64,000 nt of DNA from Lingula anatina (taxonomy: Eukaryota > Animalia > Brachiopoda): NCBI GenBank assembly GCA_051362555.1, contig CM120641.1, forward strand, positions 26,108,401-26,172,400. Direction: 5' to 3'. How positions within the stretch are numbered: position 1 is the first letter of the stretch; every line of letters begins with the position of its first letter. Below the pieces are notes generated by a model. That model ran no database searches, was not told where the DNA came from, and worked only from the letters and a program-made list of their open reading frames with translations. The translations under genes and the position numbers were made by a program. Shown here piece after piece: positions 56,401 through 59,400 of this stretch.

Positions 56401-59400
56401 CAATGGAAATCACGAATATCTTTTCTTTTTGTGCCCTTTTAAACATTAAATATGATTGAATCATAAAATTGTTGATCATTTAAACAAGAAATTTGAAAAA
56501 TTGTTATATTAAACCCAATAAACATTTCAAGTGGTAATTTATATCTGAAGTGTATGTTAAACGACTTCATGTTTCAGAAGATAAAATGAAAATTGTCAAA
56601 AACGTTTTAGAGTAATTCAAGAAAAAAATGCACAAGCAAATTCACACAGTTCTTACTTGTTCCAGTGTGTTTTGGAGTTCTTATACAGTGCAGGAAACAT
56701 AACAGGTAGTATGACACTGGCATTGTCACTGACCAAGCTCATGATGTATTCATTATTCCAGAAATACAAAGCTCTCTCCGCCACCTAAAGACAACAAGCA
56801 AGTGCACTAAGGAAGCTAATGGTAACCATGTGGCCTTGGTCAGAAGGGTGCTATGGTTGCTACAACCATGGGGGAAAAGGTGTGGTCATAGCAAAACAGC
56901 TGGCTGTTACGAGGGGGATTCAAATAATGAAATCAAGGCACATTTAGGGGAAAAAAATGCTGCACAAGTGATTCATGCAAAATGAGTCACATTCACATAG
57001 ACATCATCCAAGCACATTTAGTATCTTCATGGGACTAGATGCACTTGCAGGATATCTATCAAGCATGCGAAGGTGTGGCCTTGCCTCAGCTATACATAAA
57101 CATGTGACTTGGGAACAAAACAATAGGGGGCGCTAGTTCAGTGTCAAGACAGGCAGGACTAATGTTCAGTTAAAGCACAGTCTCCTCACCTCAACTTCCC
57201 ATCTAAAAACACTGGAATATAAAACACAACTGGGCATGCGAGGAGGTGGTTTTCCTACAGTGCCCTTTCAGAAATATTAAGTACTTTCTGCCCAACCAAA
57301 GGAAGTTTTCTTGGAGGGAAACTTGAGGTACTAATCTTACTTGTTCCAGTGATTTTTAGTCTGATGCAAGGCCGGTAGAATTACGGGCAGGATTACAGCA
57401 GCATTTTCACGAGCTAAATCAAGCAGGTAGTCATTACTCCAGTAGTACAGGCTGCGTTCTGCCACCTAGAAAGTTGCCCAAGGCCAGAGAGAAAGTAATA
57501 TGATGAAAAAAAAAATCAAGTGTCAAAGTTGTGGTGATAAGGGGGGGAAGGGGAAAGGGTGTTACACCTGAAACACAATGCAAGCTGATCATGTTGTTTA
57601 TTAACACAATCTAGCACTGCTGTTAACAGATCTTTCATGTTTCTTAAAAGATGACCATTCGGTTAGTCCAGCTGTAAACACTGGTCAACTCACAATGTAA
57701 AACACAGTTAATCTGCTTACGTACGAGTATTCAAGAAAAGTGGTTAGTTTTAATTTGCTGAAGTGGGTGCCATCTTTTAATAAACATAAGCTAGAAATGT
57801 GAACAGAAAACACAAAACAAATAGCCGAAGCATTAGGTACAACATGTATGGGCCAGCTGTTGAAGCAGCAGGTAGTGTTGTAATCTCTTACTTGTTCCAA
57901 TGCTGTTTTGTCCTGTACAGAGCAGGAAACATGATGGGCAGAATTGTCTGGACATTGTCACTGATTAAGCTCAAGATGTACTCATTATTCCAGTAATACA
58001 ATGCCCTTTCTGCAACCTATGAAAAAAGTTGCACAAAATATCAAACAATATCTATGCTTAAATAGATTGTTGCCCATTTCACAAGAAGTCCACATATTTA
58101 GGACACAGCTTAGACTGCTGAGAGCTGACCATGTATTTAAATGACTGCAATCTTGTCTATATGTAAAATTCCATGTAAAGACCATGTGCTCTTAAGGATT
58201 GCCTTTCAGATGCAATTTGGCTGAAATACTAAGCAATTTTTGTAAAATAGGCCACTTGATTTTCTAGACATACAAATGTACACAAAACTGACCTGAAATC
58301 AATAGTAAAGAGTCTGCATGCACCTCTAGCTTCAGAGGTTTCATATCATTTTTTGCCACATAGTAATCATTATAACAAGAATATTGTTAATTTGTACTGA
58401 TATTTAACAAGAACATGCAAATATCAGTATACTTGAACAAAAGCAATGTCATTTTACCCCATCCTCAATCAATTGTCTCTCCCAAATATTATGATTATTT
58501 TTTTTTTCAATTTTTCATGCTGCAAGGAAAAACTACATAAAGGGAATTCAGTATAAATAAAATAAAAAAGAATACATAATAAAAATGGCAAACTCAGGTT
58601 GACAGGAGGACAAATAAGGTCACAAATTCAAATGATAACAATAAACATTCCATGGAATGACTACAAAAAAGAAAGAGCATTGCCCAAAGTGTTCTGAATA
58701 AAAGTGAAATCATAAGCATGTGAATAAAGATGACAAAATACAGGAATTTTTAAAATTATAGTTGTTTGTTTTTAGACACACTGATGTTTTAAGTTTCAAC
58801 AAATTAACACTGCGATTAAGTTCCTCTTTATAATTTCTTTCTAATTTTGCCCATTAAAAATTAATTGTTTACTGAAAATTTTAACATGCTGCCCAGCCAT
58901 AAAATAGGCCATCTTCTGTTTTGAGCAAGCTGTCCAACTTATGGCTGGACTACTCACTCAGTGGCTTAACCCTCAATTCTAAGTCAGCTTTTACTCAAAT
59001 AGGGATTCTTTCATTACACTTCTCAACCAAGTTGAAAATCTACATAAAACAAGTAAATGTAACAAAATTATGGCTGGGAGAAAGAAAAAATAAAAGAAAC
59101 AAAAAAAGCTGAAGGGAGCAAACCATTCCACTTCTACTAATTGTGAATATTGAAAATTATAACACTAAAATAAAAAAAGAATAAATCAAAAATAATAAAT
59201 CAAATTAGTTATGCATACCTGAAAATGAGGGCTGGAGACACATTTCGCCAGCCTTTTGAAGAGGGGCACCATAATCTTGGTGAATTCCGCTGGCTCTATC
59301 ACATCCAAGATCTCTTCTAGCTCATTGAGAAACATCACCTGAAAAACAGACATTGCCACAATCTCTGTCTTAGATGAAAACACTCCATATTTTACTCAAT

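What the first reader, a model, noticed from the sequence alone, without database searches (positions are those of the whole stretch)
56657..58016. Triplicated, mutually exclusive exon cassette in the PP2A B56 gamma/delta gene
Seen: between the SSPHFQ and TIHGLIY exons are three homologous exons of 125, 125 and 128 nt. Each has an intact AG acceptor, a GTAAG donor and no stop, and each runs from phase 0 to phase 2. Including none, two or all three breaks the frame, so exactly one must be chosen. Synonymous sites are heavily diverged while the protein motif is kept, which indicates old duplicates under purifying selection rather than an assembly artefact. Known, from my recall of B56 structure work: this exon encodes C-terminal HEAT-repeat helices, including the LY(R/K)NSKTHWNK loop that contacts shugoshin and separates B56alpha from B56gamma localisation. 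Exons A and B shorten this loop by one residue (YRTKQHW, HQTKNHW), and B also replaces the Tyr and changes WNNEY to WSNDY. Inference: one invertebrate gene produces three B56 targeting surfaces by exon swapping, where vertebrates use paralogs. I do not know of a description of this cassette.
Basis: partly seen in the sequence, partly recalled or inferred. Interest (0 to 1): 0.9.

Follow-up and report, generated by a model that had tools for sequence, protein, structure and literature searches.

The report
Three-way swappable exon in PP2A-B56
A brachiopod gene for a targeting subunit of the phosphatase PP2A splices in one of three duplicated exons, plus an optional 24-base mini-exon, as RNA reads show; snails and oysters carry a two-exon version, and the swap likely retunes a surface that in humans helps decide where the phosphatase acts.

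Summary
Confirmed and extended. Exons A, B and C (125/125/128 nt, phase 0 to 2) are real. In 8 of 8 RNA runs laid, every listed joint uses one of them: A 118, B 38, C 43 downstream reads, with no double-inclusion or skip-all joint listed. All four forms match Lingula anatina RefSeq proteins exactly, so they are already machine-annotated. A two-exon version (xQHW type, then xEHW type) occurs in molluscs and in unnamed annelid-like contigs. No three-exon locus, close B relative or microexon was found elsewhere. The cassette equals human B56gamma 342-383. It holds one of five mapped shugoshin contacts (Tyr, His in B), one of four 'EPVA/TKHG' residues, and the helix that represses kinetochore binding in B56alpha. 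Frame plus NMD likely enforces exclusivity; no docking or selector helix was found. The function is inferred, not tested. No description found in 9 literature searches.

The parts
57892..58016 (-). Cassette exon A, 125 nt, short-loop TKQHW type; the major form in most runs; matches the first-slot exon of molluscs and annelids
   Evidence: (118 direct downstream joints plus 26 A-to-microexon joints), RefSeq XP_013389130.1
57341..57465 (-). Cassette exon B, 125 nt, fast-diverged (WSNDY, LARE, ALHQ); no close relative found
   Evidence: (38 downstream, 45 upstream joints), RefSeq XP_013389132.1; best outside identity 66% among 150 listed representatives
56657..56784 (-). Cassette exon C, 128 nt, canonical full-loop NSKTHW type, equal to human B56gamma 342-383
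   Evidence: (43 downstream, 30 upstream joints), RefSeq XP_013389129.1, PDB alignment
55992..56015 (-). 24-nt frame-preserving microexon adding 8 residues (YPGVTCHK) between the cassette and TIHG; seen only after exon A
   Evidence: (23 microexon-to-downstream and 26 A-to-microexon joints), RefSeq XP_013389128.1
59219..59338 (-). Constitutive upstream exon ending SSPHFQ (phase 0)
54589..54690 (-). Constitutive downstream exon ([14 protein letters not shown]...), which carries four of five mapped Sgo1-contact residues and the H/G of the TKHG signature
53461..63087 (-). In-window part of the PP2A B56 gamma/delta gene (residue 161 to stop; 11 constitutive coding exons plus the cassette); the 5' exons were not located in the window
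   Evidence: spliced translation equals the C-terminal 437-445 residues of the four RefSeq proteins; Pfam PF01603
54691..59218 (-). Cassette introns (1202, 426, 556, 641, 1301 nt) with 6 TGCATG and 11 GCATG motifs, candidate RBFOX sites
   Evidence: expected 2.1 and 4.05 from shuffles (p 0.017, 0.002); the 9 other introns of the gene hold 1 and 4 in 3910 nt

Best explanation
This is an expressed cluster of three homologous, mutually exclusive exons plus an optional 24-nt microexon in a brachiopod PP2A-B56 gamma/delta gene, giving four protein forms that differ only in the last HEAT-repeat helices and loop and likely differ in how the phosphatase is localised or partnered. Shown: each exon is spliced alone, usage differs between sample sets, wrong combinations carry premature stops, and a two-exon version exists in molluscs and annelid-like contigs. 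Inferred: exon choice is made by splicing factors (RBFOX-type motifs are enriched) and errors are removed by nonsense-mediated decay. Also inferred: A (short loop) is the general form, C keeps the ancestral human-like surface, and B, with Tyr375 to His and a rewritten 374-386 helix, would weaken C-terminal partner contacts such as shugoshin while leaving the LxxIxE pocket and core assembly unchanged. The microexon would push 8 residues into the loop in front of the partner-binding helix.
For: Junction reads in 8 runs from 3 studies: downstream joints A 118, B 38, C 43, microexon 23 (n=222); upstream joints B 45 (bridging A) and C 30 (bridging A and B); no A-B, B-C, A-C or skip-all joint listed. 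Study-level heterogeneity chi2=72, p=2e-13. Four RefSeq isoforms identical outside the cassette. pS 0.73-0.83 versus pN 0.14-0.28. Both 41-residue types in one gene in 6 sets of mollusc records and in tandem in a Tegillarca gene model. Tandem 125-nt exons in the same order in L002, L008 and L047. Mapping to human residues: with passages of PMC6398977 and PMC8256288. The model places the microexon at the loop between helices 425-444 and 450-469. Tyr375 is kept in 147 of 155 distinct homologous exons and is His in B.
Against: No functional assay. The upstream-to-A joint was never listed in either lay; only loose ends matching A's start (X2 8, X7 4, X8 6 reads) and the RefSeq models support it, and the tool's human-likeness filter is my untested explanation. 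Joints under 3 reads are not listed and NMD would hide double inclusion, so strict exclusivity at the splicing step is not shown. Usage differences are confounded with study, library and individual, and tissues are unknown. Most mapped Sgo1 contacts and the LxxIxE pocket are outside the cassette. TGCATG enrichment is modest and was one of 6 motifs tried. The positions that vary among A, B and C are also the family's tolerant positions.
Confidence: 0.7

Rival explanations
1. The splicing is real, but the forms tune holoenzyme assembly, stability or catalytic gating (contact with the catalytic subunit or the delta-type arms) rather than shugoshin or localisation partners.
For: The loop 'juxtaposes the catalytic domain' (PMC6398977 passage). 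The cassette's third residue is the B56delta disease site E420, which alters SLiM binding and mitotic timing (PMC10769853 passages). The protein is most like B56delta over its full length. B rewrites positions that are over 90% conserved, such as 357, 371 and 375.
Against: E420 and the invariant W, N, P, H, W, N residues are kept in all three exons. No contact map could be computed here.
Confidence: 0.2
2. Nearly neutral redundancy: old duplicates are kept because each is a working copy, and B is drifting under relaxed selection with no distinct job.
For: B is a long branch with no close relative and carries residues seen in 0-6% of 155 homologous exons at 12 positions. 13 of 20 genomic loci spanning both flanking exons have a single 125-nt exon.
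Against: B has pN 0.23-0.28 against saturated pS, intact splice sites and 34 of 140 joints in study P1. The two shared types keep distinct diagnostic residues and the same order across snails, bivalves and annelid-like contigs.
Confidence: 0.08
3. Assembly artefact or pseudo-exons, with only one exon used.
For: None found.
Against: Reads splice all three exons and the microexon; copies are 63-75% identical in DNA; RefSeq lists all four forms.
Confidence: 0.01

Closest known systems
Homologous mutually exclusive exon clusters from tandem exon duplication (Hatje et al. 2017, PMC5740500; passages read)
   Same: Same length class and frame, bridging junction reads, length not divisible by three so that double inclusion shifts the frame, and the same structural region encoded.
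   Different: No PPP2R5 entry in the held supplements of the human catalogues. Here the cluster has three members plus a following microexon.
coq-2 exons 6a/6e (PMC7434440; passages read) and mrp-1 as cited there
   Same: Non-triplet (134 nt) homologous exon pair in annelids, molluscs and flatworms, absent from human and mouse; independent origins versus ancestral state is unresolved there too.
   Different: coq-2 has a tested biochemical switch; this cassette has none yet, and it sits in a phosphatase targeting subunit.
Human B56alpha/epsilon versus B56gamma/delta C-terminal loop (EPVA versus TKHG; PMC6398977, passages read)
   Same: The cassette covers the same helix (374-386) and position 405. 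The mollusc/annelid second-slot exon has Phe374, Leu381 and Glu405 like human B56alpha.
   Different: Humans use separate genes with a full 128-nt-type loop. None of A, B or C carries the alpha-type Glu405, P409, V412 or A413, and A and B lack one loop residue that all human forms keep.
Lingula anatina RefSeq isoforms XP_013389128.1, 129.1, 130.1, 132.1
   Same: Identical to the four spliced products from residue 161 to the end.
   Different: Automatic annotation only; no description of the cassette, its distribution or function was found.

Membership tests
Homologous mutually exclusive exon cluster | Neighbouring homologous exons, same reading frame, similar length, no stop, GT-AG sites | tested here: met
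Homologous mutually exclusive exon cluster | Junction reads from each exon that bridge the other exons | tested here: met
   A-to-downstream 118, B up 45 / down 38, C up 30 / down 43; the upstream-to-A joint is not a bridging joint and was not listed
Homologous mutually exclusive exon cluster | No exon-joining reads unless frameshifting | tested here: met
   0 such joints listed in 8 runs (listing threshold 3 reads); any would be frameshifting
Homologous mutually exclusive exon cluster | Isoforms present as protein | not testable with these tools
   RefSeq predictions only; no proteomics
PP2A B56 gamma/delta subfamily | PF01603 domain and closer to gamma/delta than alpha/epsilon | tested here: met
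   Pfam E 3e-190 to 7e-196; PDB scores delta 950, gamma 887, alpha 689, epsilon 684 bits; Foldseek best 8u1x_B
PP2A B56 gamma/delta subfamily | T-K-H-G signature at alpha positions 405/409/412/413 | tested here: met
   Full in form C; K, H, G kept in all forms; position 405 is Q in A and N in B
Docking-site/selector RNA-structure control (Dscam type) | One intronic site complementary to several selector sites, stronger than chance and conserved | tested here: not met
   Best intron-intron helices (-11 to -17 kcal/mol) lie within the range of 8 shuffles per pair, with no shared site; no strong inverted repeat. Close relatives for a conservation test were not available, so weak conserved pairings are not excluded
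Steric or U12-incompatibility control | Very short intervening intron, or mixed U2/U12 sites | tested here: not met
   Introns are 426 and 556 nt; donors are GTAAG and GTATGC. Branch points were not mapped; B has a 100-nt AG-free zone
Frame/NMD-enforced cluster | Wrong combinations give stops more than 50 nt before the last junction | tested here: met
   232-499 nt; decay itself not tested
Neural microexon (eMIC/SRRM4 type; features recalled) | 3-27 nt and frame-preserving, in a surface loop | tested here: met
   24 nt, phase 2 to 2; loop position with pLDDT about 60
Neural microexon (eMIC/SRRM4 type; features recalled) | UGC close to the acceptor, neural-specific use, conservation | tested here: inconclusive
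   Nearest TGC is about 37 nt upstream; tissues are unknown; no YPG-type match in 19 related intron regions or in 339 proteins other than this species' own

The most novel reading that the evidence does not exclude
The spiralian ancestor built a splice switch on the exact B56 surface that vertebrates diversified by gene duplication. One 3-nt deletion and two exon duplications gave a Q-type/E-type/ancestral triple; Lingula alone, among the loci seen, keeps all three, while molluscs and annelids kept the pair. The E-type exon converged on B56alpha-like residues (Phe374, Leu381, Glu405), so splicing would toggle a gamma/delta subunit towards alpha-like targeting. Horseshoe crabs appear to swap the adjacent helix exon independently, which would make this surface a repeated target of exon switching.
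Probability: 0.3. Interest if true: 0.75.

Novelty: new member of a known kind. Interest (0 to 1): 0.5.

Why it matters
B56 subunits steer PP2A, and what separates the isoforms has been mapped to this C-terminal helix and loop only by artificial chimaeras in human cells. This cassette supplies natural, selected variants of that surface on an otherwise identical protein, shared across animal phyla, so the question 'what does this surface select?' can be tested by swapping 41-42 residues. It also adds an ancient, apparently undescribed spiralian splice switch in a core signalling gene. It is not a new kind of mechanism, and the isoforms already sit in RefSeq.

Tried and rejected
No whole genome is held, so paralogs and shugoshin of this species were not examined. 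A word-based search with exon B found 3 candidates and none scored; the HMMER search found 382 hits, best 66% identity among 150 listed, none B-like. The Cooperia double hit (P0002) is an alpha/epsilon-type duplicated stretch, not this cassette. Docking/selector pairing was not found. No Rfam match in 52000-64000. The single-sequence model of isoform B was unusable (pLDDT 50), so B was not modelled. IQ-TREE timed out. The 42-column FastTree groups A with first-slot exons (0.79) and C with 128-nt exons (0.78) and leaves B on a long unplaced branch; B scores equally against all three groups, so its origin is unresolved. The original Sgo1 structure paper was not held; residues come from two later papers. 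No complex prediction was run because no partner sequence was available. Searches of earlier scan findings returned nothing.

Full report
Observation. On the minus strand, three exons lie between the exon ending SSPHFQ (59219-59338) and the exon starting TIHGLIY (54589-54690): A 57892-58016 (125 nt), B 57341-57465 (125 nt) and C 56657-56784 (128 nt). Each has an AG acceptor and a GTAAG donor, no stop, and phase 0 to 2. Zero, two or three exons give a stop 232-499 nt before the last junction. Protein identity is 31/41 for A-C and 24/41 for A-B and B-C; pS is 0.73-0.83 and pN 0.14-0.28. These are old duplicates under purifying selection.

Expression. Nine raw-read RNA runs were listed by species label; 8 were laid, reading about 6-26% of each. 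Joints to the downstream exon, as A/B/C/microexon: X1 15/15/12/0, X2 22/7/13/0, X3 30/12/14/0, X4 7/1/0/6, X5 1/0/0/5, X6 11/2/3/2, X7 16/0/0/7, X8 16/1/1/3; totals 118/38/43/23 of 222. Upstream joints: B 45, C 30. No A-B, B-C, A-C or skip-all joint was listed, with a listing threshold of 3 reads. The upstream-to-A joint was not listed either. Loose ends at 59217 that match A's start (X2 8, X7 4, X8 6 reads) and a depth dip on both sides suggest the tool's human-likeness filter removed those reads; I could not test this. By study, B+C make up 73 of 140 joints in P1 and 8 of 82 in P2+P3 (p=6e-11); the microexon is in 0 of 67 versus 23 of 74 A transcripts (p=6e-8). Study, library, individual and tissue are confounded, and tissues are not disclosed, so this shows variable use, not a named tissue pattern.

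The missed part. Reads revealed a 24-nt exon at 55992-56015 (AG acceptor, GTGAG donor), joined only from A (26 reads), adding YPGVTCHK before TIHG. B and C are rare in the runs that use it, so coupling to A is not established.

Identity. The last exon matched a named protein at 100%. Its cluster holds four Lingula anatina RefSeq proteins, XP_013389128.1 (A+microexon), 129.1 (C), 130.1 (A) and 132.1 (B), identical outside the cassette and identical to the window's spliced translations from residue 161 on. The gene is B56 gamma/delta type. The isoforms are therefore already machine-annotated.

Distribution. Homologues fall into a 42-residue type (human, arthropods, exon C) and two 41-residue types, xQHW (like A) and xEHW. 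Both short types occur in otherwise identical proteins in 6 sets of mollusc records: Aplysia, Biomphalaria, Magallana gigas and three sets whose species names were cut off in the output. A Tegillarca gene model has them fused in tandem. Of 78 metagenome loci, 3 hold two tandem 125-nt exons in the order Q-type then E-type (L002, L008, L047); none holds three. Of the 20 loci that span both flanking exons with introns, 2 have a pair, 13 a single 125-nt exon (many of them near-identical relatives) and 5 a single 128-nt exon. L002 and L008 are called annelid-like, and L047 bivalve-like, only by resemblance to named proteins. Against universality: scallop-type (15 of 41 members listed), Littorina (6 of 6), Dreissena (4 of 4) and Mya (2 of 2) clusters showed only the E-type. 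Named annelids, a bryozoan and cestodes supplied one short type each. The labels 'nemertean' for P0208 and P0059 are recalled from accession numbers, not from a call. No B-like exon and no microexon was found elsewhere. The simplest history is one deletion and two duplications, with loss of the 128-nt copy in molluscs and annelids. A Lingula-only third copy is not excluded, because B cannot be placed.

Where it sits in the protein. Exon C aligns to human B56gamma 342-383, delta 418-459 and alpha 367-408. A model of A+microexon built on a 78-sequence alignment (mean pLDDT 77) shows three helices in the cassette and the insert at the loop before the next helix. [quoted passage not shown] From PMC8256288 (passages): interface residues Y365, H377, Y381, L384, M388, and the LxxIxE pocket matters more than this interface. 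Matching the two numberings by their 10-residue offset is my inference; it puts only Tyr375 in the cassette. B has His there, where 147 of 155 distinct homologous exons have Tyr, and B also rewrites the 374-386 helix. Position 405 is Q, N or T in A, B, C, and E in the mollusc/annelid second exon, as in human alpha and epsilon. The disease residue delta E420 is in the cassette and invariant. Seven of the 11 A/C differences fall on sites that also differ between human gamma and alpha (counted by hand), but these are the tolerant sites, so this is weak evidence.

How one exon is chosen. Steric and U12 mechanisms do not fit (introns of 426 and 556 nt, ordinary donors). No docking/selector helix beat shuffles. 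Frame plus decay fits, and is the stated safeguard for 14 of 29 worm clusters (PMC4165533, abstract and passages). TGCATG occurs 6 times and GCATG 11 times in the cassette introns against 2.1 and 4.05 expected (2 of 6 motifs tried), which points to RBFOX-type control as in worm egl-15 and unc-32. This is inferred.

Prior description. Nine full-text searches listed no paper on this cassette, judged from search listings. Held supplements of PMC7954323, PMC8373072 and PMC5740500 had no PPP2R5 entry; the first held only 36,517 characters, and all three concern model species. MetazExp (PMC8728262, listing only) names this genus and may hold the event. Subscription papers and bioRxiv supplements were not searchable. 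Also read as passages: PMC7434440, PMC8984082, PMC10769853, PMC7952134, PMC13247117, PMC5740500.

Verdict. A real, expressed and ancient homologous exon switch in a core phosphatase subunit, richer than first reported (a fourth element, and a pair shared across phyla) but with a looser tie to shugoshin. The splicing anatomy is near certain (about 0.97); a distinct targeting function is likely but untested (about 0.6). New member of a known kind; interest 0.5.

Noticed in passing
P0322 / P0324 (XP_076306102.1, XP_076306103.1; cluster with Limulus), residues 473-503: Two 619-residue isoforms on the same contig differ at 11 columns over the exon after the cassette (KNIHGLIFN versus KTIHGLIYN), which suggests an independent mutually exclusive pair on the helix with most Sgo1 contacts.
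   Followed up: partly
L008:6653-6777, L002:2753-2877, L047:3218-3342 and mollusc proteins: The second-slot exon of molluscs and annelids shares Phe374, Leu381 and Glu405 with human B56alpha but not its Glu385-Glu386.
   Followed up: partly
L014-L016, L018, L019, L029, L032, L053-L060; cestode proteins P0026, P0097: Several lineages appear to keep only the short Q-type exon, so a one-residue-shorter loop may be their only form.
   Followed up: partly
window 53300-60700, runs X7 and X8: These runs are clearly more divergent from the window (many reads 90-99% alike, fixed differences, a 6-nt insertion at 53472) yet keep the A and microexon joints; they may come from a distinct population or cryptic species.
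   Followed up: no
window 37885-39216 (-): Exons of an ionotropic glutamate receptor-like gene (Pfam Lig_chan, Lig_chan-Glu_bd).
   Followed up: no
window 24968-25855 and 29978-31231 (-): Two near-identical blocks of VWA-like exons about 5 kb apart: a recent tandem duplication or a repeated domain (weak VWA hit, E 5e-4).
   Followed up: no
window 4637-12962 (-): Exons of a gene with a weak EF-hand hit at 5588-6091 (E 1.5e-4).
   Followed up: no
window 19144-19986 (+) and 34882-36036 (+): Long open frames (280 and 384 residues) with no Pfam match.
   Followed up: no
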